A stretch of DNA of 64,000 nt, from the NCBI GenBank assembly GCA_963703225.1, contig OY969801.1, positions 804,001 to 868,000 of the forward strand, given 5' to 3'. Numbering within the stretch: position 1 is the stretch's first letter; each line of letters starts with the position of its first letter. Under the pieces are notes generated by a model, which made no database searches, had not been told where the DNA came from, and saw only the letters and a program-made list of their open reading frames with translations. This DNA comes from Candidatus Eiseniibacteriota bacterium. Its GTDB lineage: Bacteria > Eisenbacteria > RBG-16-71-46 > SZUA-252. This document shows, one piece after another, positions 34,013 through 55,011 of the stretch. The position numbers and the translations under genes were made by a program.

Positions 34013-34014
34013 CC

Positions 34015-37932: not shown

Positions 37933-37933
37933 C

Positions 37934-39916: not shown

Positions 39917-42114
39917 AGCAGCTCGCGCTGGACCCTCATTCGGGTGCCATCTCCATCATGGAGTTGGCCAATCCCTCTTTGCGACCAGACGAGGCGCTTG
40001 TGCGGGTTAGATGTTCGGTCGTCTCATCTGGGACCGAGTTGGCAAAGGTGAGCCTTGCTGGCCAGTCCTTGGTGAATAAGGCACGGAGTCGACCGGAACA
40101 GGTCACAAACGTCATCCATAGCGCGCGGATGGATGGAATAGCCGCAACGGTGCGGAAGGTCAAAGAGCGTCTCGGCACTCCGATGCCGCTGGGCTACTCC
40201 TTGGCAGGTGTCGTTGAAGAGTGTGGAGCGGCGTGTGGCGGATTGTGGCCAGGGGCAGCGGTTGCTTGCGCCGGGGCAACCGCCTCGCACGCTGAGATGG
40301 TTGCCGTTCCTTCTATGCTTGTGGTCCCCGTACCGCCAGATGTGGCCCTCGAGGATGCTGCGTACACGACGCTCGGTGCGATCGCCATGCACGGGTTGAG
40401 AACGGGTAACGTTCAGCTAGGTGATCGGGTGCTGATCATTGGCCTTGGCCTCCTGGGCCAGATTGCAACCCGCCTCTGTGTCGCCGCTGGCGCTCACGTG
40501 TTTGGGGTCGATCTGCGCGAAGACAGGGCACAGCTGGCTGTCGACTCTGGGGCGGACGCTGCGCACACCGCGCTCGACTCAGCCACGGCCAGGGCGGTTA
40601 CCGCTTGGAGTGGAGGAAGAGGGGCCGATGTGGTCCTGATCACCGCGGGAGGAACGGACAATTCGCCGTTGGTCCTGGCGGGCGATGCGGCGCGTGACCG
40701 CGCCCGGGTGGTGGTCGTGGGTGCGGTCGAGCTTGCCGTCCCGAGAGAGACGTTCTATCACAAAGAGCTCTCGCTCGTGGTTAGCAGGTCCTACGGCCCC
40801 GGCCGGTACGACCGTGACTATGAGGAACGCGGGATTGCCTATCCAGTGGGCTTCGTCCCCTGGACGGAGCGAAGAAACATGGAGGAGTTCCTGTCCCTCC
40901 TGAGCGCCGCGCGGATCACACTCCAGGGCCTCAAGGGCGAAACGGTGCCATTCGAAGATGCGCCGGCCGCATACCAGCGGCTTTCGGGGCAGAATCCGCC
41001 AATCTCCGTCGTCTTCCGCTACGGGGAGCCCGACTCCTCGCCGAGTACGATCGAGCCTCCTCCCGAACGCACAGAGCTGCTGCCTCATGTACTCACAAGC
41101 AATTGGCGTGACTCCGCGTCGCGTTTCGAGCCAAGACCCCTCCAAGTCAGCTTCGTTGGCGTTGGAAATTTCGCGACAGGCACCCTGCTCCCTGCTATTC
41201 GAGGGGCAAGCGACGCGCTCCTTGTCACTGCCGTAGCCTCGACCCCACTCAAGGCGGAGTCGGTGAAGCGCCGCTGGAAGTTCGCAGCCTCTGGGTCAGA
41301 CCCAAGTGAGGCGTGGTCGGGACACGACACGCAAATCGTGGTCCTCGCGACCCGGCACGATACGCACGCGGCCTTCGCGGAGGCTGCCCTGCGCGCCAAC
41401 AAGGCGGTCTTCGTGGAGAAACCTCTAGCACTTCTCCCAGCGGAATTTGACCGGGTAAAGACAACGCTCGACGCAACCGCGGGGAGGCTCATGGTGGGCT
41501 TCAATAGGCGGTTCGCACCGGCGGTGCGCTGGGCCGTCGATTGCCTTGGGTCCGATCGCGGGAACGCGCGCCTGCTGTTGCGGGTGAACGCCGGGCCACT
41601 CCCTTCGGATCACTGGCTTCTCGACCCTAAGATTGGAGGAGGGAGGCTCCTCGGCGAAGGCTGCCACTTCATCGATCTGGCGTGTTTTCTTGCCGGGTCG
41701 GAACCGGTCGAGGTATTGGCGCGGGGCCGCGACCGGGTTTCTGGCAATGTGCCGAACCAGGATTTTTGCGTTGAGCTGACCTTCGCCAACGGGACGACAG
41801 CCCTCATTGAATACGTCTCCAGCGGAGACCCCACTCTCGGCAAGGAACGTTACGAGATCCACCGGCAGGGAATATCGATCGTCATAGATGATTTCCGACG
41901 AGCGGAATGCCGCCGGTCGGGGAAGGTAAAGAGACACGCATGGGCGGCGCGGGACCGGGGCCACAGGGCCGAAGTACACGAATTTCTTGAGGCTGTGCGA
42001 ACCGGCGCCCCTACTCCCATCCCCGAAGCACAAAGCGTCCTATCGACCGCTCTTACCCTTGCAGCGGCGAGGTCCCTGCGCGAGGGTCGAGCTCTGGGGG
42101 CTGATGCTTGGTGA
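39913..42114 (+). CDS. bi-domain oxidoreductase: N-terminal Zn-dependent alcohol dehydrogenase (MDR) fused to C-terminal Gfo/Idh/MocA domain
   Basis: 733 aa; ATGA overlap with asnB; MDR Rossmann GLGLLGQ; C-terminal VGVGNFA...FVEKPLA and EGCHFIDL Gfo/Idh/MocA motifs. Confidence 0.75.
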   Translation: MKQLALDPHSGAISIMELANPSLRPDEALVRVRCSVVSSGTELAKVSLAGQSLVNKARSRPEQVTNVIHSARMDGIAATVRKVKERLGTPMPLGYSLAGVVEECGAACGGLWPGAAVACAGATASHAEMVAVPSMLVVPVPPDVALEDAAYTTLGAIAMHGLRTGNVQLGDRVLIIGLGLLGQIATRLCVAAGAHVFGVDLREDRAQLAVDSGADAAHTALDSATARAVTAWSGGRGADVVLITAGGTDNSPLVLAGDAARDRARVVVVGAVELAVPRETFYHKELSLVVSRSYGPGRYDRDYEERGIAYPVGFVPWTERRNMEEFLSLLSAARITLQGLKGETVPFEDAPAAYQRLSGQNPPISVVFRYGEPDSSPSTIEPPPERTELLPHVLTSNWRDSASRFEPRPLQVSFVGVGNFATGTLLPAIRGASDALLVTAVASTPLKAESVKRRWKFAASGSDPSEAWSGHDTQIVVLATRHDTHAAFAEAALRANKAVFVEKPLALLPAEFDRVKTTLDATAGRLMVGFNRRFAPAVRWAVDCLGSDRGNARLLLRVNAGPLPSDHWLLDPKIGGGRLLGEGCHFIDLACFLAGSEPVEVLARGRDRVSGNVPNQDFCVELTFANGTTALIEYVSSGDPTLGKERYEIHRQGISIVIDDFRRAECRRSGKVKRHAWAARDRGHRAEVHEFLEAVRTGAPTPIPEAQSVLSTALTLAAARSLREGRALGADAW

Positions 42115-43351
42115 CCTGACCGCTGAGCGGGCGCTCGTCCATACGCTGGAGCGCGCGGAGCGGGCCGGATGGAAGGGAGCCGATCCCTACGACGGGTTGC
42201 TCTCGACCATTGGGGCAGCGGCCATTCCCCTTGGATCGCTGGCTCGGATGGCCCTCCTGCAAACGGTGACGAGGTCTGGGCTAGTTCGCCGGGTCGTCAA
42301 CCCCACGAGATCCACAAATCCGAAGGGTCTGGGACTGTTCCTCGGGTCTGTTTTGAGGGGCCGGGACACCCTGGGCCCTCGTCGCGCGCGAGATCTTGGG
42401 GTGGCGCTCCTGTCCGAGATTGAGTTGGCAGCTAGGAAGGCGCCGCACGGGATCGGTTGGGGGTACCCGTTTCCTTGGCAGTCCAGATTCTTCTATGCGC
42501 CGGCCGGAACATCCAACGCGGTAGTTACCGCCACCGTAGGCTGGCACCTTCTTGATTGGGCTGATGAGATGGCATCGGATCGCGCGAGGTCGCTGGGATT
42601 CGGTGCTGCTCAATTCCTATCGCAATCGTTGGTGCATCAGGAGGCACCTTCCAGTGGAGCCTCAGTCTCCTACATCGAGTCGAGCCGAGACCGCATCGTC
42701 AATGTATCCATGCTGGCGGCCAGACTCCTGATGCGGGTCGGCGCCGACGCCCCACGCCGCCCAAGCCAGGCCGTCACGGCAGCCGAGGCGGCGTTGATGA
42801 GAGCCCAGGCCGACCGGCTCCTTCAATTCGGGCTCTCCCAGCAGCTCCCATCCGGATTTTGGAAGTACGCTGTTGAGGCTCGCGGCAATTGGGTGGACTC
42901 CTACCACATGGGGTTCATCCTGGAGTCGCTTCTCTCCCTCCGTACTCTGGGAGCCCCGGTCCCCAACGCACCTTTGCTCCGGGGACTGAGTGCCTACGCC
43001 TCGTTCTTCGATCCCGACGGCGGGGCACGATACTCAAGTGGGAGCCGGTCCTTTTACGATGCACACTCCGCGGCACAGGGAATCGTCACCTACACTTCCC
43101 TGGCCAGTGACGACGGTATGCCCTCCGCCGCTCGCGAGGATGCCGCGGAGCGGGCTGGCCGGATCGTGGACTGGTCGCTGAGAAATTTGTGGATCTCTCC
43201 AAAAGGCTATTTCGCCTATAGGGTGATTCGTGGTAGGAGGGACGAGCGGGACTACTCCCGATGGGTCCAGGCGTGGATGGCTCTGGCCCTTGGAACCGCA
43301 CTAGGAAAGCCAAGCCAGGCTGAGGTGGTGGAAGCGCAGGAAGCGCGGTAA
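42104..43351 (+). CDS. hypothetical protein within polysaccharide locus
   Basis: 415 aa from ATG overlapping upstream stop; no confidently recognised family. Confidence 0.5.
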   Translation: MLGDLTAERALVHTLERAERAGWKGADPYDGLLSTIGAAAIPLGSLARMALLQTVTRSGLVRRVVNPTRSTNPKGLGLFLGSVLRGRDTLGPRRARDLGVALLSEIELAARKAPHGIGWGYPFPWQSRFFYAPAGTSNAVVTATVGWHLLDWADEMASDRARSLGFGAAQFLSQSLVHQEAPSSGASVSYIESSRDRIVNVSMLAARLLMRVGADAPRRPSQAVTAAEAALMRAQADRLLQFGLSQQLPSGFWKYAVEARGNWVDSYHMGFILESLLSLRTLGAPVPNAPLLRGLSAYASFFDPDGGARYSSGSRSFYDAHSAAQGIVTYTSLASDDGMPSAAREDAAERAGRIVDWSLRNLWISPKGYFAYRVIRGRRDERDYSRWVQAWMALALGTALGKPSQAEVVEAQEAR

Positions 43352-43380
43352 TCCGTCAGGGATTGGCGGGGGGTGGTGGG

Positions 43381-44472
43381 ATGGGGCAGGGGCCCGTCTG
43401 GTTCGACTTTGAGAACACGCCGCACGTCTTGTTTCTGGAGCCGATCATCCGGCGGCTCCACGAGACAGGCCTAGAGACCGTTGCGACAGCGAAGCCTCAG
43501 TCCCAAACCATTGAGCTCGCGGCCGCGCGCGGAATCCCCGTCGATGTCGTAGGCGGCGGAAATCACAAGGGTCGGCTCAGGAAGTTCCTCTACGGTCTTG
43601 GGCGAGCCGCACAGCTCGCTGCTTGGGCCGTCTCCAAGAAACCCCCGCGTCTGCTTGTCTCCAGCTCCAGGACTGCTTCGCTGGCCGCCAGGGCGCTCGG
43701 CATCCCAGCGATCGGTCTCCTCGACTACGAGCATTCCGAATACCGGCCCATTGCCATGGCCTCCAGGCCGGTCCTGATGCCCGATCTCTTTCGCGGAGCG
43801 AATCTTCCGCTCGCGCTCCGTCGGGTGGTCGGGTTTTACGAAGGCCTCAAAGAAAACCTCTACATTGATGATCGCTCTCTAAACCGCGGCGCCTGTCGCG
43901 CGGGTCTTGGCATACACAATGGGGCGTACGTCGTCGTCGCTCGGCCTCCTGCGTGGAACGCTCACTACGCGGAAAGGGCGGATACGAGCGTCGCCCTCTG
44001 GATGCGGGCAGTCCGTCAGTTTCATTCTGTGGATCACACGCGAATCTACTTGGTTCCGAGAGATCGGGAACAGCTCGACTGGCTGAACCGGTCCTTCGGT
44101 TCCTCGGCTGGCGTGCATGTGTTTTCAACGGCTATGGATGGCCCTGCCCTGATCGCTGGCGCGGATTTGGTGATCAGCGGTGGTGGAACGATGAATCGAG
44201 AGGCAGCGGCTCTCGGCGTGCCGGCGTGGAGCGTGTTCACGGGGCGCACACCGCACGTGGACGAGTGTTTGGCGCGAGAGGGGCGGCTGCGCTGGGTGCG
44301 AACCGAAGAGGAGTACGCGGACGCCTGGCGCGCACCACGACCACAACTCCTCCCGAGGAGGGGGCCGTACCCGGCGGGCCTTGAGCGTATCGCCGATGAA
44401 GTCCTTTCGGCGACGGGTGTGGTGGCGGAGAGACAGTCAGAACTGGCAAGCGAGGAGGCACGTCAACTCTAG
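43381..44472 (+). CDS. DUF354-like protein (GT-B fold, glycosyltransferase/epimerase-like)
   Basis: VWFDFENTPHVLFLEPII N-terminus reminiscent of DUF354 family; assignment tentative. Confidence 0.45.
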   Translation: MGQGPVWFDFENTPHVLFLEPIIRRLHETGLETVATAKPQSQTIELAAARGIPVDVVGGGNHKGRLRKFLYGLGRAAQLAAWAVSKKPPRLLVSSSRTASLAARALGIPAIGLLDYEHSEYRPIAMASRPVLMPDLFRGANLPLALRRVVGFYEGLKENLYIDDRSLNRGACRAGLGIHNGAYVVVARPPAWNAHYAERADTSVALWMRAVRQFHSVDHTRIYLVPRDREQLDWLNRSFGSSAGVHVFSTAMDGPALIAGADLVISGGGTMNREAAALGVPAWSVFTGRTPHVDECLAREGRLRWVRTEEEYADAWRAPRPQLLPRRGPYPAGLERIADEVLSATGVVAERQSELASEEARQL

Positions 44473-44491
44473 CGCCGATTGAGAACCATCA

Positions 44492-46064
44492 GTGGAGGCA
44501 GCTGGGACGCTGCCGGGAGGATCGGAGCTGAAGCCGGAAGGAGCACCGGCTCGCGAGCGCGAGACCGGAAGCATCGAAATCCGACAGCAGCAGGTCGCTG
44601 GGCGTCGCGCTTACGACCCGGCGGCTCGCGAAGCACCCTTCCAGCCCAGGGCCAGGCGGCCCGCCGGGCACAGTGCTCTCGTTTTCGCGACGGTTCTTGG
44701 CGATCTCGCATCCGTGGCGATCGGGACGTTGGCAACCTCCACCCTCCGATACCCAATCGCTGAGACATTCTCATCGCTGCTCACGCCCGAAGGATCGACC
44801 CTTGTTCTTCTAGCTTCCCTAGCGTGGGTTGGCCTCCTCTCCGCCCGCGGGGCCTACTGGCCGAAGGTCACTCTTGGACGCGGTCGCCAGGCCGTTGTCA
44901 TCGTCGGGGCGGGGTTGCCCGCCTGGATCGTCGTCCAGCTCGCTGCATCCTGGCTCAAGGTCACCGTGCCGCTCGACAGCAGGCTGGTCATGGCCCTATC
45001 GCTACCCGCCACCCTGCTGGGCTTGGTGCTGTTCAGGCTGTCCATCGTGCGCCTTGGGGCGCACCAAGTGTATCGCCGGCGCGGTCAAGGGCTTCTCCTA
45101 GCTTTGAGCGCTTCCGACCCGTTTGCTCGGGGGGCGAGCAGCCCGTGGGCCCCGCATTTCCGTGGCAGGGTGGTCGTGCACCAGTACCTGGGTCCTCTCA
45201 GTCCCGGTCGTGCGCAGTCGCTTGTGGCCGAATATGAAGCAGAAGAAGTACTGCTGGAAACGGGTGTCCTTCCAGGAGCGGACACTCTGCAGATCGCCTT
45301 CGCGTGTCTGGATGCAGGGGCCGAGGTTCAGCTCGTACCTGCGGAGGGCCGCGCATCCGGGCGTGGACTCTCCGAGGATCGGGTCGGCGCGCTGCCGATG
45401 CTGCACCTCCGACGATTCGACCTAGCAGGTCCAGAGGTCATCTTCAAACGAATGGCGGACGTCGTTGGGTCGACGCTTGGCCTCTTGCTTCTCTCGCCCT
45501 TGTTTGCCGCGCTCGCGCTTGCGGTCAAGATCAACTCATCCGGCCCGGTCATTTACACGTCGGAGAGAATCGGCAAGCGCGGCCGGAGATTTCGGATGTT
45601 CAAGTTCCGAACGATGTTCCACGGGAACGACTCGAGGGAATATGAGAAGTACCTCGGTTCTTTATCCGGCAGGGAAGACCGGCGGTTGTCACGGCGGACG
45701 GGACGCACATCTACAAGCCGCCCACATGATCCGCGCGTCACCGCGGTCGGGGCTTGGCTCCGGAGGCTCTCCCTGGACGAGCTCCCACAGCTGCTTCAAC
45801 ACCCTTCTTGGCAGAATGAGCCTCGTCGGTCCTCGGCCGTGCCTGCCGTATGAGTGGGAGCTGTATGCGCCGTGGCAGCGGCGACGCCTCGATGTGACGC
45901 CCGGCTGCACAGGGCTGTGGCAGGTGAAAGGGAGGAGTCGGGTTCGATTCGAAGACATGGTGATACTCGACCTCTACTACGCGCATCACGGAACTCTTCT
46001 GAGCGACTTGCGGCTGATGGCTCAGACTATCCCCGTCATGGCGCAGGGACGCGGAGCGTACTGA
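44492..46064 (+). CDS. undecaprenyl-phosphate sugar phosphotransferase (initiating sugar transferase, WbaP/EpsL-like); frame disrupted near 45785-45800
   Basis: TM N-terminus; C-terminal bacterial sugar transferase motifs (PVIYTSERIGKRGRRFRMFKFRTM, SLDELPQL / LLGRMSLVGPRP, PGCTGLWQV) across two frames. Confidence 0.75.
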
Positions 46065-46084
46065 GAGGCGGGCACCCGCCTCAC

Positions 46085-46174
46085 CCACTCCACCCTCCCG
46101 CCGACGAGGAACGGCGTCTCGTTCGTTGAGGACCCGGGGATGTGATCCAGGTTCTCGATCGAAACCGTTCCGAT
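46085..46174 (-). pseudogene. remnant of Wzi-like outer-membrane protein 3' end
   Basis: Encodes IGTVSIENLDHIPGSSTNETPFLVGGRVEW, homologous to the C-terminus (VGTASIENLDHILAPAESETPFRVSGKVAW) of the intact gene at 48846-50423; about 50/70 ungapped nucleotide identity between 46100-46170 and 48860-48930. Confidence 0.45.
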
Positions 46175-46175
46175 C

Positions 46176-46310
46176 GATGTGAAGTCGATTCCCGATGGGA
46201 TGGTGGCCGCCGGAAACCCTGCCGAAGTCCTCAAGAAGATTGAGGATCTCAAGTGTTATCCCGGCTTCTTTGAACGCCCCTACGTCTGGGAGCCATACCA
46301 GAAGGGCTAG
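46176..46310 (+). pseudogene. possible remnant of hexapeptide-repeat acetyltransferase C-terminus
   Basis: ...IPDGMVAAGNPAEVLKKIEDL... resembles acetyltransferase C-terminal IP-x-x-VAAGNPA-V motif; no start codon or upstream body. Confidence 0.3.
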
Positions 46311-46450
46311 CGCCTCCCGCCACGCACTCCAGAGCGATGCGCGTCCGTCGAAGCTCGAACCGGCGCCATGCAGTATCACAACCGAATCATAGGATTAGCC
46401 TAGCTGATTCATCATAGCTACAATCTCTCCGTCACCACACCGGAGGGACT

Positions 46451-47410
46451 GTGCAGACGAACAGCGCGAAGTGGCTTCTCCTCATCCACCAAATCCCCGC
46501 GAAGCCTGACTACCTACGCGTGAAGGTCGGGCGCGAATTGCGCCAGCTTGGTGCCGTGGCGATCAAGAACTCGGTCTACGTGGTGCCGGCGGCTCCAGGG
46601 ATGCGAAAGGCGCTCGCGGACTTTTCCCGGGAGGTCCTCCAGCGCGGCGGGGAGGCGGCCGTCTGCGAGGCTCACTTTATTGAGGGCCTCGCCGATGGCG
46701 CGGTGGAGGACCTATTCCGCAAGGCGAGCGACGCGGAGTACTCCAAGCTCGCCGAGGAAGCGAGGGGTCTGGCCTCTGAGATGCGGGGCAGGCGGGCGGC
46801 CAACGACGCGGCCCGGCGAGCGGCGGCGCGGAAATTGGAACGGCTACGCCTGCGGTTCGACGAAATCGTCTCGAGGGATCCCTTTGACGCGCGAGGGCGA
46901 GCGGCCGCGGCGAGCGCAATTTCCCTGGCCGAGGATCGGGTCGAGGGAGTCGACGTGGGAGCGAAGGGGGGCGCCGGCGATCTGGAGCCGCCTCGGGGCG
47001 CCACCTGGGTGACGCGCACGGGCGTCATGGTGGATCGAATCGGGAGTGCCTGGCTCATTCGCCGGTTCATCGACCCGAAAGCCGAGTTCAAGTTCGTCTC
47101 CGCCCGCGGCTACAAACCCGTTCCGGGCGAGATCCGCTTCGACATGACCGGCGCGGAATTCACGCATCGGGACCACCTCTGCACTTTCGAGGTGCTGGTG
47201 GAGCGATTCCGGCTGCGGGATTCGGCTCTCAAGCCACTCGCCGAGATCGTCCACGACCTCGATTTGGAGGATGAGAAATATCGCCGACCGGAAGCCGCCG
47301 GGGTGGAGCGGATGATCGTGGGACTGGCCATCGCGGAGAAGAGCGATGAGGTGCGGCTCCGCCAAGGGGCCGCGGTGTTCGAAAACCTCTATGAGTCCTT
47401 TCGCAGGTGA
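46451..47410 (+). CDS. chrB: ChrB-like chromate resistance regulatory protein (N- and C-terminal ChrB domains)
   Basis: 319 aa; GTG after GGAGGGA; N-terminal WLLLIHQIPAKPDYLRVKVGRELRQLGAVAIKNSVYVVP and C-terminal WVTRTGVMVDRIGSAWLIRRFIDPKAEF motifs. Confidence 0.65.
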   Translation: MQTNSAKWLLLIHQIPAKPDYLRVKVGRELRQLGAVAIKNSVYVVPAAPGMRKALADFSREVLQRGGEAAVCEAHFIEGLADGAVEDLFRKASDAEYSKLAEEARGLASEMRGRRAANDAARRAAARKLERLRLRFDEIVSRDPFDARGRAAAASAISLAEDRVEGVDVGAKGGAGDLEPPRGATWVTRTGVMVDRIGSAWLIRRFIDPKAEFKFVSARGYKPVPGEIRFDMTGAEFTHRDHLCTFEVLVERFRLRDSALKPLAEIVHDLDLEDEKYRRPEAAGVERMIVGLAIAEKSDEVRLRQGAAVFENLYESFRR

Positions 47411-47453
47411 GGTTGTTGCGACTGGGTCGAGGCAAACGGAGGAGGGAAGCGCG

Positions 47454-47915
47454 ATGAAATGGGTAACGAGAGAGAACGTGCAGGTGGATCGAGTGGCATG
47501 CCCGTGGCTGATCAAGAAGTTCGTAGATCCGAAGGCTGAATTCCTGTTCGTGCCGGCGGACCAGGTCATGGCCGTGGCGGAGCGCGAGAAGGCGATCCCG
47601 TACGATGTGAAGGGCGTCGAGCTAGGCCATCATGGGAAGGAGTGCTCGTTCGATGCGATCGTCAAGAAGCACGGCCTGACGTCCGACCCGGCGCTGGTGC
47701 TGCTGGCCCGGATCGTGAACGGAGCCGACACGGACAACACGCTCTGGAACCAGCCAGAATCGGCCGGGCTGAGGGCGGTCGCCAAGGGCTTTCGCGGTCT
47801 TGGCTTCAAGAACGACCACGAGCTGAACGCCGCCGAATGGATCGTCTACGACGCGCTCTACGCCTACTGCGGGAAGATGGTGGAGGAGGGGAAGCTGGAG
47901 GGCGCGGCGAGGTGA
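47454..47915 (+). CDS. ChrB C-terminal domain protein (chromate-resistance-like)
   Basis: 153 aa; GGAGGAGGGAAG RBS; WVTRENVQVDRVACPWLIKKFVDPKAEF parallel to ChrB C-domain. Confidence 0.6.
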   Translation: MKWVTRENVQVDRVACPWLIKKFVDPKAEFLFVPADQVMAVAEREKAIPYDVKGVELGHHGKECSFDAIVKKHGLTSDPALVLLARIVNGADTDNTLWNQPESAGLRAVAKGFRGLGFKNDHELNAAEWIVYDALYAYCGKMVEEGKLEGAAR

Positions 47916-48868
47916 GTTCGGTCTTGGGGGCGGACGGTTCTCTGACGCGCGTCGGCTACATCGATCTACCGGAGCACATCGGGCAGGGCGGTTTCGATCA
48001 CGCGGCGGTCGATCGAGGCCGCGCCCTGCTCTACGTGGCGCACACGGCCAACGATGCGGTGGACGTTGTCGACACGCGGGCGGGCACCTACGTGCGGTCC
48101 ATGATCGGCCTCAAGGAGGTCGCGGGGGCGGCGGTGGACGAGCCGTCGGGCTTGGTCTTTACCTCGAACCGCGGTGAAGATACGGTTGGCATCTACTCAC
48201 CCGATTCGGCTGGCACAATCGAAAAGGTCGCGGTCGGCCACAGGCCCAATGGTCTCGCCTATGATCCCGGCCGCGGAATCCTCCTTTCCGCAAACGTGGG
48301 GAACGCGAAAACCGGCCGCCCGCCCAGCGTCACCCTGGTGGATGTCCCCGCGCGGTCGGCGGTGGTGACGATCCCCATGCCGGGTCGAACCCGCTGGGCG
48401 ATCTTCGACCCCAACCGCGGGGTCTTCTTCGTCAACATCGCGGACCCGCCGCAGATCGTCGAGATCGATCCGCGGGCGTCCGGCGAGGTGTCGCGCGCTC
48501 TCGGCGTGCCTGCCCGCGGGCCCCATGGCCTGGATCTCGACTCGACACGGCAGCGTCTCTATTGCGCGTGTGATGATGGGACCCTGGTGAGCCTCAGCTC
48601 GCGATCGGGGGAGGTGCTCGATACTCTCAGCCTGAGCGGTGCGCCCGACGTCGTATTCCTGAATCGCGCGCTGGCGCACCTCTACGTGGCGATCGGCGAC
48701 CCCGGCGTCATCGACGTGATCGACGTCGCCTCGTGGAAGCGAGTAGACGTGGTCCCCACGGAGGCCGGCGCGCATACGATCGCGCTCGATGAAGGCGGGA
48801 ATCAGGTCTACGCCTTCCTGCCGCGGACGCACCGGGCGTCCGTTTTCACCACGCCACCTTCCCGCTGA
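47912..48868 (+). CDS. YncE/YVTN-like beta-propeller repeat protein
   Basis: GTG overlapping upstream stop; repeated ~40-aa units with GxxPxGLxxD-like pattern. Confidence 0.55.
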   Translation: MSSVLGADGSLTRVGYIDLPEHIGQGGFDHAAVDRGRALLYVAHTANDAVDVVDTRAGTYVRSMIGLKEVAGAAVDEPSGLVFTSNRGEDTVGIYSPDSAGTIEKVAVGHRPNGLAYDPGRGILLSANVGNAKTGRPPSVTLVDVPARSAVVTIPMPGRTRWAIFDPNRGVFFVNIADPPQIVEIDPRASGEVSRALGVPARGPHGLDLDSTRQRLYCACDDGTLVSLSSRSGEVLDTLSLSGAPDVVFLNRALAHLYVAIGDPGVIDVIDVASWKRVDVVPTEAGAHTIALDEGGNQVYAFLPRTHRASVFTTPPSR

Positions 48869-50423
48869 CGCGAAACGGCGTCTCGCTCTCGGCGGGCGCC
48901 AAGATATGATCCAAATTCTCGATCGACGCCGTACCCACAACCGCCTCCACGCGCAGCCACCGCGCCGGCGAATAGATCGCCGCACCGCTCACGCGCGTCT
49001 CCTGCTCCGCCACGCCCTGAAAGGCTGAAGCATCCACTTCGCCGTCCGAGGGCTTCCAGGGATCGCTGACCTGGCCTTCACCCTTCTTTCGATATTCGCC
49101 GCGCACCTGAAACTCCCAATTCGCGCCCCACTCCAGCGCGACCTCGCCGGCGAGTAACTCGACGTCCGGGCCGAGAACAAACCCTGTGGGGAAGCCGTCG
49201 AACGAGAAATCGTGGTCGTGCCAGGCCGAGTAGACGTAATTGTGGACGCGGGAGTACTCGGCCGATACGCCGAGCGCGCCGCGTCCAGCCAATTCCCGCC
49301 GCCACTCGCCGCCTGCCTGGTACCCGATCATGTCGGGCTTGTAGTCGCTGCTGAACGAGTAGTCGTCCATGAGGAACTCGCCGTAGACGCGCCAGCCGGG
49401 GCGGACAACCCACGAGGCGTCGGCCGCCCAGAGCACGTTGTTCTTGGCGAAGAGGGCGCCGGTCGAGTCGCCGGGCAAGGAACCGGCGCTCTTCGGTCGC
49501 TTTTCCCAGAACGAATAGGGCACAAAGGGAATCAAATAGAGAGGTGCCTGGCTCGTGCCGTCGAACCGGGCCAGCTCCGTGGCTCCCACGGTGAGCCCGC
49601 CGCGCGCCTGCCACTCCAGCCGGTGTCCGGCCAAATAGGTCTCTTGGCCAGGGTCGAGCATCGCGACGAGCTGGTTGTAGCGGAACCGCCGAAACATGCC
49701 CAGCTCCACCCTCAGCATGTCGAGCGCGGGCGCGGCGTCGGAGAGCGCGAGCGTTCCGCTTTCGCCCGGTCCCCATCGCAGCCACGTGTGCCCGAAAAGG
49801 AACCGAAGGCGCGAGATGGGGAACTCGACGTAGGCCTCGTTCACGTACGAATTGAAGTCGACTCCTTGTACCAGCGAGTTGAAGTCGCCGAAGTCGGGAG
49901 TCCCACGTCCGCCCTGGGACGCCGTCCCCTCGTAGAGATCCACGACAAAGACGCCCGACGAGTCGAGCGCACCCGCCATGGAAGCGCCGACTCGATAGTC
50001 GCGGTTGATGTCGGGATTGTTCCGGGGATCGTCGGAGTAGAGGAGCGACACGTACGGCGAAATCTCGAGCCGCTCCCCATTGTCCTCGGCGTCACCGTCG
50101 CCTTTGGCCGAGATCAGCGGCCGCGTCGCGCCCTTCGCCTCTGGATCCAAATACCGCGCCGCGCGTTGAAACGCCGGATCGTCAGCGGCGCCCTCCCGCT
50201 CTTCGGCCAATCCGCGCAGGAACGCCAGCGCCTCCGCGCGCCGCAGCGGCCGGCTCGACAGGAATCGAGGCGCGACGCCGAACCGCGTGGCCAGTCTCTC
50301 GAGGTCGCGATAGACGGGGCTGTCGGTGGGGATCCGCTCTTGGGGCAAATAGGTCGCGCGGGCCGCGCCGGTGGCAACGAGAAGCGCGCTACCGACGATG
50401 ATCGCGACACAGAAGCGCTTCAT
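48846..50423 (-). CDS. Wzi-like capsule assembly outer-membrane protein
   Basis: 525 aa; signal peptide; N-terminal YRDLERLATRFGV helical motif then beta-barrel-like alternating pattern; family call tentative. Confidence 0.5.
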   Translation of the reverse strand: MKRFCVAIIVGSALLVATGAARATYLPQERIPTDSPVYRDLERLATRFGVAPRFLSSRPLRRAEALAFLRGLAEEREGAADDPAFQRAARYLDPEAKGATRPLISAKGDGDAEDNGERLEISPYVSLLYSDDPRNNPDINRDYRVGASMAGALDSSGVFVVDLYEGTASQGGRGTPDFGDFNSLVQGVDFNSYVNEAYVEFPISRLRFLFGHTWLRWGPGESGTLALSDAAPALDMLRVELGMFRRFRYNQLVAMLDPGQETYLAGHRLEWQARGGLTVGATELARFDGTSQAPLYLIPFVPYSFWEKRPKSAGSLPGDSTGALFAKNNVLWAADASWVVRPGWRVYGEFLMDDYSFSSDYKPDMIGYQAGGEWRRELAGRGALGVSAEYSRVHNYVYSAWHDHDFSFDGFPTGFVLGPDVELLAGEVALEWGANWEFQVRGEYRKKGEGQVSDPWKPSDGEVDASAFQGVAEQETRVSGAAIYSPARWLRVEAVVGTASIENLDHILAPAESETPFRVSGKVAW

Positions 50424-50493: not shown

Positions 50494-50841
50494 TTAGCCC
50501 AGCAGGCCTGAACTCACGAGGAGCCGCTGCGACCAAACGCCGGCTTCTTCCGCGACGCCGGTTAGGTCATCGGGCGAGGATGGGGGATGGGAGAGTCGAA
50601 TCGTCCACGAGCGGACTCGCTCGCCAAGCCGGGAGAGCTCCAACGCGAGATCAGAGTCTCTCGGCACGGCCGTGTGCTGAATAAACATCTCTGTTTCCTC
50701 GATGAGTCCGCGGACAATTTCGCGATGATCGGGATTCGATGAGAAGGAGCGAATCCGCGCGAGGTTGGCCGCGATACCTCCAACTTGCATGTCGAGGCGA
50801 TCGCTCAAGTACCGGTTCAGCCTTTCGGTCGAATTCTTCAT
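50494..50841 (-). CDS. hypothetical protein
   Basis: 115 aa from ATG at 50841 overlapping upstream stop (ATGA). Confidence 0.4.
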   Translation of the reverse strand: MKNSTERLNRYLSDRLDMQVGGIAANLARIRSFSSNPDHREIVRGLIEETEMFIQHTAVPRDSDLALELSRLGERVRSWTIRLSHPPSSPDDLTGVAEEAGVWSQRLLVSSGLLG

Positions 50842-51176
50842 ATCCCGCCTAGTATGCGCCTGGTAACCTTGTCGACGCGCGCCCGGATCGCGGCGCTTTG
50901 AATCTCGACTGACGGGTTTGCTTGGCGCGGCCTGATGTTTATCAGGGAGTGGTACCTGACTTCCTGGGTCGAAGGCACCCAATCAGCACCCCAAATGTCT
51001 TCTTGGTTGCTGCCGGCCTTGAGCAAGGCCGCCTCGCAGTCGGCATGCATGATGCCCCCACCCGCGACAACCTCTCGCCGAATGTCGACCGCTACCTTGA
51101 CATAGTCCTCGAGCGCATGGAGCATCTCGTCGAGTTGTTGCCGTGTGGGTTGAGCGCGCAGCACATGCACCGTCAC
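50838..51176 (-). CDS. hypothetical small protein (112 aa), not listed separately in ORF track
   Basis: GTG 3 nt after CYTH-CHAD stop with GGGGGAG upstream; MTVHVLRAQPTRQQLDEMLHALEDYVKVAVDIRRE...MHADCEAALLKAG...; coherent non-repetitive sequence hidden in tail of long ORF 50838-52751. Confidence 0.45.
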   Translation of the reverse strand: MTVHVLRAQPTRQQLDEMLHALEDYVKVAVDIRREVVAGGGIMHADCEAALLKAGSNQEDIWGADWVPSTQEVRYHSLINIRPRQANPSVEIQSAAIRARVDKVTRRILGGI

Positions 51177-51178
51177 CC

Positions 51179-52706
51179 CTACTCCCCCGTCGCCCGCTCC
51201 CAAGCCAGCCGCAAGTCTCCGCGCTTGATCCGCGCCGCGCGCTCGAGATGCCCGAGCGCGCTGCCGGTTCCCATCACCAGCTCCCGGTCCTTCTTGGGCA
51301 CGCTGCCGGCGTACTTTCTCATTCGCCGCCAGAGCGCCACCGCGTCGCGGTGGTCTCCAAGGAAGTCTTGCAGGGTCGCGATCCGCCGGGCGCGTCGGAC
51401 CGCGCCGTGGCCCTCGATGTCCGTGAAATACTCGATCGCGTACCGCGCCTTCTTCGCCGCGATCCGAAGCGTGTGGAGGTCCTCGATCTCCATCGAGCGC
51501 TCGGCCTTCTCGTAGGCTTCGCGCATCGCGTCGTTCCATTGGGCGACGATCCGGGACGCGACCGCGTACCCTGGCATCCCCCCCTCGGCCACCGTCGAAG
51601 CTGGGGGCGGACCCGCGTCCACCCATCCGCGGGCGCGGGCGGCAAACGCTCCAAAGCGCTCCGAGTCGAGGCGCTCGACCAGTCGGCGGCGCCGCTCGGC
51701 GCGCCTCACCGAGAGCCCCTGCGCGAATATCTGGAGCGCGGGACGCTCGTGCGAGGTCCCATCGGCTATGAGCGCCGCGACGTGCGTCAGCGCGACATCC
51801 AGATCCCGCACCCGGCCGAGCGCGCGGCCGATCCAGCGAAGCTCGCCCTCCAGCTCCTCCCGGAGCGCTTGGGGGTAGCCGTCCGCGAGGACGACGAGCG
51901 CGGTCCGAAGCCGCCTGCAGGCCACCCGCATGTCGTGGACGTACGTCGGGGTCGACGCCGAGTCGCGTCCCTGGCTCGTTCCAGAAGAGCCGCCCCAAAT
52001 GGCGGCCAAAGGACTTGTGGGCTACGTCGAGGAGACGGTCGGCGTGGTTCAGCGCGAACGCGCGCTCGTCCCGCTCCGGGAGCCGCTCGCCCATCGCGGA
52101 GAGCGCGGCCGAGAGCTTGGTCTCGACCGTTTGCGCGAGGCCGAGCTGCTCCTCCACCGCGCGCCGCACCTGGCCCAGCGCCTCGTAGGCGCCGTTCTGA
52201 AGCTCGAGCTCCACCTCGCGGAACGTCGCGGGTGGCGCGCTCACGTGGTCGACCGTGAGCGAGCCGAGCAGCGTCTCCCCGCGGAGCCAGCGGAAGCACT
52301 CGCGGTCGTTTCGGACGCGGGCGCGAACCAGGAGTCTCTCGATCGCGTGGAGCCCCGCGAGCGGGTGGAGCAATCCCGCCACTGGACCGGGCTCGAGCGC
52401 GGTCCAGGGCGGATCGCCGTTGGGCGCGTCCTGGGCCCATTCCTCCCGCACCAGCGCCTTCTCGTCGGCCGACCGGAGCGATTTCGCCTCCAGCCGGAGC
52501 CGTGTCCCTTCGGAGCGTAGCCGAAGCGCGATCCCGGCGCGGAAGAGCGTCCAATTCTCGGTGTCGAGGTAGCGGTCCTCGTGGACGACGGTGCCGCTCG
52601 GCTCCAGATGAAATCCGGCCGATTCCACAGCCGCGCGCACGGTGGCGGGGTCGCGCCCCTCGGGCAATCGAAACTTGATCTCGCGCTCGATCATGGCGAT
52701 ATCCAT
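51179..52706 (-). CDS. CYTH-CHAD domain protein (triphosphate tunnel metalloenzyme-like plus CHAD); frame disrupted near 51940-51980
   Basis: N-terminal EREIKFRL CYTH motif; C-terminal CHAD (VHDMRVACRRLRTALVV) in second frame; start overlaps sixA stop. Confidence 0.7.
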
Positions 52707-53212
52707 CACGAATCGGCGATCCGCCGGAGCGCGCCCGGCTGGAGCAGCCATTCCAGGAATCCAAGCCCCGGCGCGGGCTCGGAGGGGAATCGCAGCAACG
52801 CGGCGGCGCCCTTCCGGAATACGAGCGAAGCTGAGTGGTGCGGGCCGCAGAGGAGGTACGAGGCGAATCCGCTCAGGTGTGGCTCGTGCCCCACGACCGC
52901 GACCGACTTCACGCCGAGCGCGGCCACCGCCCCCAGCGCGTCTCCATAATCGGCGTCCGGCTTGAGGCGAGGGGTGTGCTCGATCTCCAAATGCGGCTGC
53001 ACGGCGTCGCGAAGAATCTCAGCCGTCTGGCGGGCTCGCAGGAGCGGGCTCGAGAGGATCCGGTCGGGGCGCACGTCGAGTTTTTCCAAGCCCTTCGCGG
53101 CGAGGCGGAACTTGTGAATTCCCTCAGGGGTCAGCGGGCGATCGTCGTCCCACGGGTAGGCAGGATCGCCGCGCTCGACGGCGATGGCGTGACGCACGAT
53201 ATAGAGATCCAC
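52706..53212 (-). CDS. sixA: phosphohistidine phosphatase SixA (histidine phosphatase superfamily)
   Basis: 168 aa; LYIVRHAIAVERGD N-terminal RHG-type motif, VVGHEPHLS. Confidence 0.75.
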   Translation of the reverse strand: MDLYIVRHAIAVERGDPAYPWDDDRPLTPEGIHKFRLAAKGLEKLDVRPDRILSSPLLRARQTAEILRDAVQPHLEIEHTPRLKPDADYGDALGAVAALGVKSVAVVGHEPHLSGFASYLLCGPHHSASLVFRKGAAALLRFPSEPAPGLGFLEWLLQPGALRRIADS

Positions 53213-53409: not shown

Positions 53410-55011
53410 ATGGACGTCGGCTCGAACGCCCTACGGCTGGCCATCGCGGAATTCAGAAGCCCCACCGAATACGAGGTCCTCGACCGGGTGCGTGCCCCGG
53501 TCCGGCTCGGGGAGTCGGTTTTCAAGAGCCAGCGGATCGACCCGGCCACCATGGAGGCGGCGCTCGACGCGTTCCGCACGTTCCGCCGGAAGATGGAGCA
53601 GCACGGCGTGGTGGTCCATCGCGCCGTCGCGACCAGCGCGACGCGCGAGGCGAAGAACCGCGCCGCGTTTCTGGAGCGGGTCCGGAGCGAGACCGGTCTC
53701 GATCTCGAGCTGATCCAGGGGACAGAGGAGGCGCGGCTCGTCGCGCTGGGCGTGAAGAGCCGCCTCTCCTTGGAGCGCGGGCTCTCGATGATCCTTGACG
53801 TGGGGGGCGGGTCGAGCGAGATCGCGCTCGTCGGGCACGGAGAGATCCTGATCGTGGAGTCGCACGACGTGGGCGGGGTGCGGCTCCTCGAGCGGGCCGG
53901 CAAAGGACCGCCCGAGAAACTGTTCAAGCTGATCCAGGCCACCCTGCGCTCGTCGCGGTTTCCGATCCTCGACTACTTCAAGCGCCGGCGGCTGAATCGG
54001 CTGATCGGAACGGGCGGAAACATCGAAACGCTCGCGCTCCTGACCTCGGCCAATGGACACGCCCGCGCGAACGGGGACGAGCGTCCGGTGGCCAAGGTCA
54101 CGCTCCCCCGGCTTCGGAAATTCCTCCATCAGCTCACCAAGCTCTCGCCCGCCGAGCGGGCGTCCCGCTTCGACCTCCGTCCGGATCGCGCCGACGTGAT
54201 CGTGCCGGCGGGGGCGATCTTCGAGTACGTGGCCACGCGGGTGCGCGCCCGCGAGATCTGGGTGCCGTTCGTGGGGCTCGTGGACGGGGTGCTGATCGAC
54301 GTGGCGCAGGCCGCGGGCACGGAGGGAATGAAGCAACTCGAGGTTTCCCAGACGCGAAACGCGGCGGTCGCGATCATGCACAAGTACGACCCCGAGCCAA
54401 GGCACGCGCAGCGGGTGAGCGCGCTCGCGGTGTCGCTCTTCGACCAGCTGAAGCCGATGCACGGGATGGGGAAGCGCGACCGGCTCCTGTTGGAGCTGGC
54501 GGCGCTCCTCCACGAGGTGGGGAACTTCATCGGACCGAACGGCCACCATCGCCACTCGCTCTACATCATCGCGCAGACCCCGATCCTCGGGCTGGGCGAC
54601 GACGAGCTGATGGTGGTGGCGAACGTCGCCCGCTATCACCGGAAGGCGCCGCCCGACATGAGCCACGAGTACTACCGCGATCTCTCGGAGGGCGACCGCG
54701 AGCGGGTCCGCGCCCTCGCGGCCATCCTCCGTGTCGCCGACGCGCTCGACCATGACCACCGGCAGCAGGTGACCGCGGTGCGCGCCAAGCAGCGGGGCTC
54801 CGAGCTGAGGCTCAAGGTGAAGACCCGCGGGGACGTGACCCTGGACGAGTGGTCGGTGGGCGACAAGGGCGATCTCTTCCAGGACGAGTTCGGCCTCAAG
54901 CCCGTGGTCGCGCGCCGGTGGCTGACGCGCTTCCGGTCATCTCGGTCATCGACGTCGGCGCGAGCGGGATCCGCATGCTCCTCGCCGAGCTTCGCCCGGG
55001 CGGCGAGTTGA
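53410..55011 (+). CDS. ppx: Ppx/GppA family exopolyphosphatase (3' end uncertain)
   Basis: MDVGSNALRL...ATSATREAKN...DVGGGSSEIAL actin-fold motifs and C-terminal HD-like region; C-terminal ~30 aa low complexity, may be artefact. Confidence 0.75.
   Translation: MDVGSNALRLAIAEFRSPTEYEVLDRVRAPVRLGESVFKSQRIDPATMEAALDAFRTFRRKMEQHGVVVHRAVATSATREAKNRAAFLERVRSETGLDLELIQGTEEARLVALGVKSRLSLERGLSMILDVGGGSSEIALVGHGEILIVESHDVGGVRLLERAGKGPPEKLFKLIQATLRSSRFPILDYFKRRRLNRLIGTGGNIETLALLTSANGHARANGDERPVAKVTLPRLRKFLHQLTKLSPAERASRFDLRPDRADVIVPAGAIFEYVATRVRAREIWVPFVGLVDGVLIDVAQAAGTEGMKQLEVSQTRNAAVAIMHKYDPEPRHAQRVSALAVSLFDQLKPMHGMGKRDRLLLELAALLHEVGNFIGPNGHHRHSLYIIAQTPILGLGDDELMVVANVARYHRKAPPDMSHEYYRDLSEGDRERVRALAAILRVADALDHDHRQQVTAVRAKQRGSELRLKVKTRGDVTLDEWSVGDKGDLFQDEFGLKPVVARRWLTRFRSSRSSTSARAGSACSSPSFARAAS

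What the first reader, a model, noticed from the sequence alone, without database searches (positions are those of the whole stretch)
46451..48868. chrB-like pair and beta-propeller protein without a chrA transporter
A full-length ChrB-like protein and a stand-alone ChrB C-domain protein are followed by a YncE-like beta-propeller gene, with translational coupling and no ChrA chromate efflux gene in the window. ChrB domains may here serve a different sensing role, possibly linked to the neighbouring cell-surface polysaccharide genes. An AT-richer promoter-like stretch with TACAAT (46419-46424) and inverted repeat TAGCT-N10-AGCTA lies just upstream.
Basis: partly seen in the sequence, partly recalled or inferred. 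Interest (0 to 1): 0.45.

Follow-up and report, generated by a model that had tools for sequence, protein, structure and literature searches.

The report
Chromate-sensor operon without its efflux pump
Three intact genes form an operon, probably self-regulated, built from known accessory parts of bacterial chromate-resistance clusters (the sensor-regulator ChrB, the small ChrF protein and a ChrK/ChrZ-like beta-propeller) with no ChrA pump nearby; this is a recurrent, mildly interesting variant, not a new kind of system.

Summary
Gene 46451-47410 encodes ChrB_N+ChrB_C, 47454-47915 a stand-alone ChrB_C domain, and 47912-48868 a 7-bladed beta-propeller. No ChrA was detectable anywhere in the 64-kb window.

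All three genes match known chr-cluster accessories:
- ChrB keeps the DNA-binding and chromate-response residues mapped in O. tritici.
- The small protein is a ChrF homologue.
- The propeller is homologous to ChrK (Arthrobacter FB24) and ChrZ (pMOL28), but lacks their signal peptide.

It is conserved upstream of chrB in all seven related loci with DNA. It occurs once in the window, so the only candidate ChrB site found is its own promoter.

The polysaccharide synteny is seen only in the closest relative. None of nine related (Eisenbacteria-type) loci has ChrA within 10 kb; several carry a ChrP-like MFS transporter instead. In the survey, 17 of 46 ChrB loci lack an adjacent ChrA.

Most likely this is an autoregulated, oxyanion-responsive accessory operon. 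Whether chrA lies elsewhere in the genome is unresolved. New variant of a known kind; modest interest.

The parts
46383..46411 (+). Candidate ChrB operator: inverted repeat cGAATCA-N15-TGATTCA, half-site centres about two helical turns apart, flanking the -35 position
   Evidence: One mismatch to TGAATCA-N15-TGATTCA. Unique in the window, with 0 of 100 shuffles matching. The same repeat with the same 15-nt spacer lies upstream of chrB in L001, L002, L003 and L007 (0-1 mismatch) and in L089 and L090 (2-3 mismatches). The only exact matches in 90 fetched loci are upstream of chrB. Binding itself is inferred by analogy with the O. tritici ChrB operator, which overlaps the -10 (PMC3817168).
46396..46401 (+). 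Weak -35-like hexamer TAGCCT inside the operator spacer
   Evidence: It aligns with TTGACT, TTGACG, TTGACC, TTGGAC or TTGCAA at the same spacer position in L003, L002, L089/L090, L007 and L001, 17 nt from the -10. Only 3 of 6 bases match the consensus in the window, so the generic promoter scan did not call it.
46419..46424 (+). -10 hexamer TACAAT, 7 nt downstream of the right operator arm
   Evidence: Relatives carry TACACT, TATCCT, TATACC, TACCAC and TATCAC at the identical 7-nt distance. Function is inferred.
46401..46420 (+).
   Evidence: Exact and unique in the window, but absent at this position in L001, L002, L003 and L007. Lineage-specific; no evidence of function.
46442..46447 (+). 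Ribosome-binding site GGAGGG ahead of GTG 46451
   Evidence: Read directly from the sequence.
46451..47410 (+). chrB: full-length ChrB-family sensor-regulator (319 aa)
   Evidence: Pfam ChrB_N plus ChrB_C. Matches CH34 ChrB1 (2e-30) and Burkholderia ChrB (2e-33). R23 and R28 align with the DNA-binding R18 and R23 of O. tritici ChrB; R189, R196 and H239 align with its chromate-response residues R180, R187 and H229. AF2 model pLDDT 84.8; the N-terminal half is a Cas2-like ferredoxin fold followed by helices, closest to PaaX 8a39. dN/dS 0.12 against L001.
47454..47915 (+). chrF-like gene: stand-alone ChrB_C domain protein (153 aa, MKWVTRE...)
   Evidence: ChrB_C over the whole profile. Best matches are Burkholderia stand-alone ChrB_C (7e-46) and pMOL28 ChrF (1e-43). 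R6, R13 and H59 align with the R180/R187/H229 triad. dN/dS 0.026: 96% amino-acid identity to L001 at dS 0.92. Its 90%-identity cluster has 278 members.
47912..48868 (+). Leaderless ChrK/ChrZ-like 7-bladed beta-propeller (318 aa); its GTG overlaps the chrF stop (GTGA)
   Evidence: Homologous to Arthrobacter ChrK (4e-26), pMOL28 ChrZ (5e-23) and Burkholderia chr-cluster YncE (8e-29). No signal peptide, unlike those three. AF2 pLDDT 94.3 with 7x4 strands. Foldseek matches 7-bladed propellers including YVTN and YncE. The 120 listed homologues are 303-335 aa (nearly all 303-318). The last 23 nt overlap the convergent Wzi-like gene 48846-50423.

Best explanation
The region is a three-gene operon, chrB - chrF-like - leaderless chrK/chrZ-like propeller. 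It is the accessory and regulatory subset of a chromate (chr) determinant, maintained without an adjacent ChrA pump.

Proposed mechanism:
1. ChrB binds, probably as a dimer, to the inverted repeat GAATCA-N15-TGATTC. Its two arms bracket the -35 position and sit 7 nt upstream of the -10 (TACAAT), so binding occludes its own promoter.
2. A tetrahedral oxyanion, with chromate the default candidate, binds the ChrB_C domain through the conserved Arg/Arg/His triad (R189, R196, H239) and relieves repression.
3. The operon then produces more ChrB, plus ChrF and the propeller.
4. ChrF is a second copy of the sensor domain with no DNA-binding half. It most likely modulates ChrB or buffers the ligand; a Mn-dependent superoxide-scavenging role has also been reported for one homologue.
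5. The cytoplasmic 7-bladed propeller is a recurrent partner of ChrF. Invariant His and Asp residues at the start of its blades suggest a ligand- or metal-binding site.

What is shown: gene identities, conserved residues, the conserved operator-promoter layout, purifying selection, and absence of ChrA in the window.
What is inferred: DNA binding, the effector, and the roles of ChrF and the propeller.
Unresolved: whether a chrA elsewhere in the ~3.1-Mb contig belongs to the same regulon.
For: Domain calls.

Homology to characterised chr clusters. The propeller query retrieves exactly the chrK and chrZ genes of Arthrobacter FB24 plasmid 3, pMOL28 and Burkholderia chr clusters. Reciprocal phmmer scores agree.

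Literature. ChrB of O. tritici is a chromate-responsive DNA-binding dimer that acts at an inverted repeat overlapping the -10; R18 and R23 serve DNA binding, and R180, R187 and H229 the chromate response (PMC3817168). All five positions are conserved here. The numbering was verified on a TnOtChr-identical locus, L088.

Operator. Unique in the window. Conserved with identical 15-nt spacing and identical distance to a TAnnnn -10 in all seven relatives with DNA.

Selection. dN/dS is 0.12, 0.026 and 0.28 for the three genes.

Conserved module. The chrB + 153-aa ChrB_C pair is present in all nine related contexts. Five add the leaderless propeller and three a ChrP-like MFS, with L090 counted in both; L003 carries an unrelated MFS.

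Link to chromate clusters. The leaderless propeller also sits in chr clusters that do contain ChrA, in Reyranella-type alphaproteobacteria.
Against: There is no ChrA in 46 kb upstream or 15 kb downstream, nor within 10 kb in any of nine related loci. A resistance function through efflux therefore cannot be assumed.

The effector is unknown. Conservation of an Arg/Arg/His triad does not prove chromate specificity.

The operator sequence differs from the O. tritici one (GTAGAT...ATCTAC). The -35 is weak in the window, and the generic promoter scan found no sigma-70 site.

ChrF's function is disputed in the literature: putative repressor in C. metallidurans (PMC7060636), Mn-SOD activity in O. tritici (PMC4779226).

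No biochemical function is known for any ChrK/ChrZ-type propeller.

Nothing here is experimental.
Confidence: 0.6

Rival explanations
1. The effector is not chromate. The ChrB-ChrF-propeller module, with or without a ChrP-like MFS, is a ChrA-independent response system for another oxyanion (sulfate, thiosulfate, molybdate, selenate) or for oxidative stress. Its association with ChrA in model organisms would then be secondary.
For: 17 of 46 surveyed ChrB loci with at least 3 kb on both flanks have no ChrA nearby. Many of them keep ChrF, DUF1259 (ChrY/ChrL), a propeller or an MFS. All nine Eisenbacteria-type contexts lack ChrA. These are soil and groundwater MAG lineages with no obvious chromate exposure. 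O. tritici ChrF is reported to have SOD activity (PMC4779226).
Against: The residues required for the chromate response are invariant. The same propeller subfamily and the same ChrF sit in ChrA-containing clusters. O. tritici ChrB is described as highly chromate-specific (PMC3817168). No positive evidence points to any other ligand.
Confidence: 0.25
2. One reading: the ChrB domains sense a signal that controls the neighbouring cell-surface polysaccharide genes (the 31.6-46.1 kb cluster and the Wzi-like genes).
For: The trio lies between an EPS cluster (Wzy_C, flippase, glycosyltransferases, DUF354, sugar transferase) and a Wzi-like gene. The same arrangement is kept in L001.
Against: The synteny is seen only in the 83%-identical relative. 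L002, L003, L089, L090 and the P0033 and P0022 contexts have unrelated neighbours. The operator occurs once in the window, at chrB itself; the next best match has 3 mismatches, lies inside a coding region, and is within chance expectation. A 387-nt gap holding a gene remnant separates chrB from the cluster.
Confidence: 0.05
3. A decaying remnant of a chr cluster that lost chrA and no longer functions.
For: Several neighbouring genes look frameshifted (sugar transferase, Ppx, PPK). A gene fragment lies just upstream of chrB.
Against: All three ORFs are intact. dN/dS is 0.03-0.28 against a relative with dS ~0.7-0.9. The operator and promoter are conserved across seven loci. The architecture recurs in many MAGs.
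Confidence: 0.03

Closest known systems
pMOL28 chrIBACEFONPYZ cluster of Cupriavidus metallidurans CH34 (and the Burkholderia pyrrocinia chrB-chrA-SOD-x-ChrB_C-MFS-YncE cluster)
   Same: It contains a full-length ChrB, a stand-alone ChrB_C protein (ChrF, 140 aa, MKWITRE...), a ChrP MFS transporter and a terminal YncE-family propeller (ChrZ). The window proteins match ChrB1 (2e-30), ChrF (1e-43) and ChrZ (5e-23). The MFS next to the module in L002 and L090 matches ChrP (235-265 bits).
   Different: The window has no ChrA, ChrC (SOD), ChrE (rhodanese), ChrI, ChrO/N, ChrP or ChrY. The three genes are contiguous in a single operon. The propeller lacks the signal peptide that ChrZ has.
Arthrobacter sp. 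FB24 chromate resistance determinant (chrJ, chrB-Cterm, chrB-Nterm, chrK, SCHR, chrA, chrL; Henne et al. 2009, PMC2751784)
   Same: [quoted passage not shown] The window propeller matches ChrK at 4e-26.
   Different: In FB24, ChrB is split into N- and C-terminal genes, ChrK is secreted, and chrA plus an SCHR gene are present. Identity to the window propeller is only ~27%.
TnOtChr chrBACF of Ochrobactrum tritici 5bvl1 (Branco & Morais 2013, 2016)
   Same: ChrB autoregulates through an inverted repeat that overlaps the promoter. The functional residues are conserved. ChrF is a stand-alone ChrB_C protein.
   Different: The operator sequence and geometry differ (12-bp arms with a 9-bp linker, against 7-bp arms with a 15-bp spacer). 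chrA and chrC are present there. There is no propeller.
E. coli YncE / PQQ-associated beta-propellers
   Same: A 7-bladed YVTN-type propeller fold.
   Different: Scores are far below the curated family cut-offs (39 against 400 bits, 51 against 287 bits). YncE is periplasmic, whereas this protein has no leader. It is not a member of that equivalog.

Membership tests
ChrB family regulators (Pfam PF20229 + PF09828) | ChrB_N followed by ChrB_C in one polypeptide | tested here: met
   54.8 and 157.6 bits, both above the curated cut-offs.
ChrB family regulators (Pfam PF20229 + PF09828) | N-terminal arginines needed for DNA binding (O. tritici R18, R23) | tested here: met
   They align with window R23 and R28. 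R28 is invariant and R23 at least 90% conserved in 43 homologues.
ChrB family regulators (Pfam PF20229 + PF09828) | C-domain residues needed for the chromate response (R180, R187, H229) | tested here: met
   Invariant columns in A2. They correspond to window ChrB R189, R196 and H239.
ChrB family regulators (Pfam PF20229 + PF09828) | Inverted-repeat operator overlapping its own promoter | tested here: met
   A conserved GAATCA-N15-TGATTC brackets the -35 and lies 7 nt from the -10 in seven loci. Binding was not tested.
ChrB family regulators (Pfam PF20229 + PF09828) | Adjacent to, and regulating, a chrA efflux gene | tested here: not met
   No ChrA in the window or within 10 kb in nine related loci. 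By contrast, 29 of 46 more distant ChrB loci have one.
ChrB family regulators (Pfam PF20229 + PF09828) | Chromate-inducible transcription | not testable with these tools
   Needs expression experiments.
ChrF (stand-alone ChrB_C protein of chr operons) | A single ChrB_C domain of about 140-155 aa, most similar to ChrF rather than to the C-domain of ChrB | tested here: met
   1e-43 to CH34 ChrF and 7e-46 to Burkholderia ChrB_C, against 3e-19 to CH34 ChrB1.
ChrF (stand-alone ChrB_C protein of chr operons) | Mn binding and SOD activity, or repressor activity | not testable with these tools
   Reported only for O. tritici (PMC4779226) or proposed for C. metallidurans (PMC7060636).
ChrK/ChrZ chr-cluster beta-propellers | Sequence homology to Arth_4252 / Rmet_6194 and a 7-bladed YVTN-type fold | tested here: met
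   E 4e-26 and 5e-23. tblastn retrieves those genes. 7 blades in the model. D29, H44, H205, C220, D246 and H288 are conserved in both propeller types, apart from L090 propA at H44, H205 and H288.
ChrK/ChrZ chr-cluster beta-propellers | N-terminal signal peptide (exported protein) | tested here: not met
   The window protein begins about 30 residues after the ChrK/ChrZ start, with no hydrophobic segment. The same holds in L001, L007, L034, L053, L056, L058, L076, L078, L084 and L090 propB.
ChrK/ChrZ chr-cluster beta-propellers | Encoded next to ChrB-domain genes | tested here: met
   Its start codon overlaps the chrF stop. Relatives show the same linkage.
CHR chromate-efflux determinant | Presence of a ChrA (PF02417) transporter | tested here: not met
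   The rest of the genome could not be searched.
YncE equivalog (NF052280) / PQQ_ABC_repeats (TIGR03866) | Score above the curated cut-off | tested here: not met
   39.3 against 400 bits, and 50.9 against 287.3 bits.

The most novel reading that the evidence does not exclude
ChrB + ChrF + a cytoplasmic ChrK-like propeller, often with a ChrP-like MFS, could be a self-contained oxyanion-response module independent of ChrA. It would be widespread in uncultured soil phyla (Eisenbacteria, Rokubacteria, Gemmatimonadota). The propeller's ring of invariant His and Asp residues and ChrF's Arg/Arg/His site would then handle the ligand inside the cell by binding, reduction or hand-off to an MFS exporter. 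If so, the ChrB/ChrF/propeller set rather than ChrA would be the conserved core of one class of chr systems, and the label 'chromate resistance protein' may misname its physiological role.
Probability: 0.2. Interest if true: 0.55.

Novelty: new variant of a known kind. Interest (0 to 1): 0.3.

Why it matters
ChrB is used as a chromate biosensor part, and ChrF and ChrK/ChrZ are long-standing proteins of uncertain function in chr clusters.

This lineage keeps exactly those three genes, under strong purifying selection and behind a conserved operator, with no ChrA nearby. That argues they do something useful on their own. It also offers a minimal three-gene system in which to find out what ChrF and the propeller do.

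The comparison yields a concrete 29-bp operator to test. It also splits the chr-associated propellers into exported and cytoplasmic subfamilies.

The finding does not change the general picture of chromate resistance, and it does not reveal a new class of system.

Tried and rejected
- Exact look-up of the window ChrB and of P0001 in the contig index returned nothing. The source contig beyond the window could not be read, so 'chrA elsewhere in the genome' stays untested.
- The genome-contig scan did not contain the window's own genome; the best hit was a 73%-identical Eisenbacteria MAG.
- The generic sigma-70 scan found no promoter and only chance-level terminators. The promoter call rests on comparative alignment instead.
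- Foldseek on the propeller returns only generic 7-bladed propellers (WDR5, G-beta, YVTN, YncE), so there is no enzyme-specific lead.
- The EPS-regulation and pseudogene-remnant readings were rejected (see the rival explanations).
- Rfam and tRNA scans of the whole window were empty.
- The MFS next to chrB in L003 is not ChrP-like, so it was not counted as such.
Full report
**1. Observation**

The window is 65.7% G+C. Three same-strand ORFs with typical codon bias occupy 46451-48868.
- Gene 1 (46451-47410, 319 aa) carries ChrB_N and ChrB_C.
- Gene 2 (47454-47915, 153 aa) is a complete, stand-alone ChrB_C domain.
- Gene 3 (47912-48868, 318 aa) matches curated propeller models only below their cut-offs. 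It is nevertheless clearly a propeller. It hits YVTN 1l0q and YncE 3vgz by sequence. Its AlphaFold model (39-sequence alignment, pLDDT 94.3) has 28 strands, i.e. seven four-stranded blades. Foldseek gives TM ~0.8 to seven-bladed propellers, including YncE and the archaeal YVTN domain.

The GTG of gene 3 overlaps the TGA of gene 2. Genes 1 and 2 are separated by 43 nt containing a strong ribosome-binding site. The 153-aa and 318-aa products are on record exactly as called, on a 3.12-Mb contig.

**2. No ChrA in the window**
- phmmer with three long-chain ChrA proteins and one short CHR protein from Arthrobacter, Cupriavidus and Burkholderia found nothing in the six-frame translation.
- Every ORF with three or more predicted membrane helices is otherwise assigned: Wzy, flippase, sugar transferase, Yip1, YetF.

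The window covers 46 kb upstream and 15 kb downstream of the trio.

**3. What the genes are**

A tblastn search of the propeller against plasmids retrieved the 'YncE family' genes inside well-known chromate determinants: Arthrobacter FB24 plasmid 3, Arthrobacter Chr15, pMOL28 of C. metallidurans CH34, and Burkholderia plasmids. The annotated regions show the following:
- FB24: chrB-Cterm, chrB-Nterm, then the propeller (chrK, Arth_4252), an SCHR gene and chrA.
- pMOL28: chrI-chrB1-chrA1-SOD-chrE-chrF(ChrB_C)-O-N-MFS(chrP)-DUF1259(chrY)-propeller(chrZ).
- Burkholderia: chrB-chrA-SOD-x-ChrB_C-MFS-propeller.

Henne et al. [quoted passage not shown] The gene names chrE, chrF, chrO, chrN, chrP, chrY and chrZ are used for CH34 in PMC7060636.

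Direct comparison gives these matches:
- window ChrB against CH34 ChrB1: 2e-30
- window gene 2 against CH34 ChrF: 1e-43, and against Burkholderia ChrB_C: 7e-46
- window propeller against ChrK, ChrZ and Burkholderia YncE: 4e-26, 5e-23 and 8e-29

So all three genes are homologues of components of described chr clusters.

**4. Functional residues**

I recovered a TnOtChr-identical chrBACF locus (L088) by searching the published O. tritici operator. It also contains the published chrC and chrF primers, and its ChrB has the right residue at all 14 positions named in the mutagenesis paper.

In the alignment:
- R180, R187 and H229, needed for chromate induction (PMC3817168), are invariant. They correspond to R189, R196 and H239 in window ChrB, and to R6, R13 and H59 in the ChrF-like protein.
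- The DNA-binding R18 and R23 correspond to R23 and R28.

The ChrB model (pLDDT 84.8) has an N-terminal Cas2-like ferredoxin domain plus helices, closest to the middle and C-terminal parts of PaaX. The C-domain has no informative solved relative, and no rhodanese appears among the listed matches.

**5. Operator and promoter**

Comparing the chrB upstream regions revealed a conserved inverted repeat, TGAATCA-N15-TGATTCA.
- Window: 46383-46411, one mismatch.
- L003 and L007: perfect. L001 and L002: one mismatch. L089 and L090: 2-3 mismatches.
- It is unique in the window, with zero matches in 100 shuffles.
- The only exact matches in all 90 fetched loci lie upstream of chrB.
- More distant ChrB loci carry N14 or N16 versions, or TGTATCA/TGATACA variants.

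A -35-like hexamer sits at a fixed place in the spacer (TTGACT, TTGACG, TTGACC in relatives; the weak TAGCCT in the window). A TAnnnn -10 lies exactly 7 nt after the right arm: TACAAT in the window; TACACT, TATCCT, TATACC, TACCAC and TATCAC elsewhere.

The layout parallels the O. tritici operator, which overlaps the -10, and implies autorepression by promoter occlusion. This is inferred, not shown.

**6. Comparative context**

The window's lineage is Eisenbacteria-like, judging from named hits and a best genome match of 73%. Nine contexts hold a ChrB that is 58-100% identical to the window's:

| Context | Gene order |
|---|---|
| Window, L001 | chrB-chrF-propeller |
| L089 | chrB-chrF-propeller (cut by the contig end) |
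| P0033 context | chrB-chrF-304-aa gene with no Pfam hit (no DNA available) |
| L007 | chrB-propeller-chrF-propeller |
| L090 | chrB-secreted propeller-chrF-leaderless propeller-ChrP-like MFS |
| L002, P0022 context | chrB-chrF-MFS (ChrP-like in L002; Pfam MFS_1 only for P0022) |
| L003 | unrelated MFS, divergent from chrB-chrF |

None has ChrA within 10 kb.

Among 46 ChrB loci with at least 3 kb on both flanks, 29 have an adjacent ChrA and 17 do not. That set comprises the window, L001-L003 and the 45-73%-identical ChrB loci of the GTDB species representatives. A ChrB locus without an adjacent ChrA is thus common in this part of the family.

The polysaccharide genes are syntenic only in L001.

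**7. Two propeller subfamilies**
- ChrK, ChrZ, the Burkholderia protein, L090 propA and several others have signal peptides. They score only 38-100 bits against the window protein.
- The window type is leaderless: the 120 listed homologues are 303-335 aa, nearly all 303-318, and 5,738 score E<=1e-5.
- The leaderless type also occurs in Reyranella-type chr clusters that do have ChrA: SOD-rhodanese fusion, ChrF, a 460-aa multi-pass membrane protein (MATE-like, my reading, not profile-tested) and the propeller, divergent from chrB-chrA.
- Both types share D29, H44, H205, C220, D246 and H288, apart from L090 propA at three of these positions. Five of the six lie at or just before the first strand of a blade (H44 ends a later strand), which suggests a common ligand site. 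This is inference only.

**8. Selection**

Against L001 (dS 0.7-0.9), dN/dS is 0.12 for chrB, 0.026 for chrF and 0.28 for the propeller. ChrF is 96% identical between the two, and its 90%-identity cluster has 278 members spanning Eisenbacteria and Rokubacteria. The genes are functional, not relics.

**9. Interpretation**

The best-supported reading is an autoregulated, oxyanion-responsive chr accessory operon lacking an adjacent pump (confidence ~0.6). Open points are the effector, the roles of ChrF and the propeller, and whether a distal chrA exists.

The rivals are a non-chromate effector (0.25), EPS control (0.05) and a decaying remnant (0.03).

The finding is a new variant of a known kind. 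Its value is as a minimal system for working out what ChrF and the ChrK/ChrZ propellers do, together with a defined candidate operator.

Noticed in passing
window 44492-46064: The WbaP-like polyprenyl-phosphate sugar transferase (Bac_transf) is split over two frames, with the shift near 45790. The orthologue in L001 is an intact 518-aa protein.
   Followed up: partly
window 50838-52751 and 54849-58577: A polyphosphate gene cluster: CYTH and CHAD, a histidine phosphatase, two Ppx/GppA genes and PPK1. It shows several apparent frameshifts (Ppx switches frame near 56000-56120; PPK1 is spread over at least three frames). This may be long-read indel error in a single 3.12-Mb contig, or real decay.
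   Followed up: partly
window ~46150-46310: A ~55-codon C-terminal remnant (…IPDGMVAAGNPAEVLKKIEDLKCYPGFFERPYVWEPYQKG*) lies in the 387-nt gap between the EPS cluster and chrB. By eye it resembles a hexapeptide-repeat acetyltransferase; this was not tested with profiles. L001 has only a 157-nt gap there.
   Followed up: partly
window 48846-50423 (-) and 59147-60718 (-): Two Wzi-like outer-membrane capsule-assembly genes. The first converges on the propeller gene and overlaps its last 23 nt, which leaves no room for a terminator between them.
   Followed up: no
L058 6168-9970 (Reyranella massiliensis MAG); similar in L053, L056, L078, L084: A chr cluster variant: a SOD-rhodanese fusion (ChrC-ChrE), ChrF, a 460-aa multi-pass membrane protein that looks MATE-like (by eye, not profile-tested) and a leaderless propeller, transcribed divergently from chrB-chrA. 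I did not find it described in the papers searched.
   Followed up: partly
L090 10001-14736: One operon encodes both a secreted ChrK/ChrZ-type propeller and a leaderless window-type propeller, together with chrB, chrF and a ChrP-like MFS, and has no ChrA. The two propeller types are therefore not interchangeable.
   Followed up: partly
window 47454-47915: ChrF is far more conserved than its neighbours: 96% identity to L001 at dS 0.92, and a 278-member cluster at 90% identity that spans Eisenbacteria and Rokubacteria. This hints at very tight constraint or at recent horizontal spread.
   Followed up: partly
[not shown]
   Followed up: partly
window 31000-46100: A region of lower G+C (58-64% against ~67% elsewhere) coincides with the polysaccharide cluster: SLBB/Poly_export, Wzy_C, flippase, two GT1 glycosyltransferases, an asparagine synthase-like gene, a GFO/IDH fusion and DUF354.
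   Followed up: no
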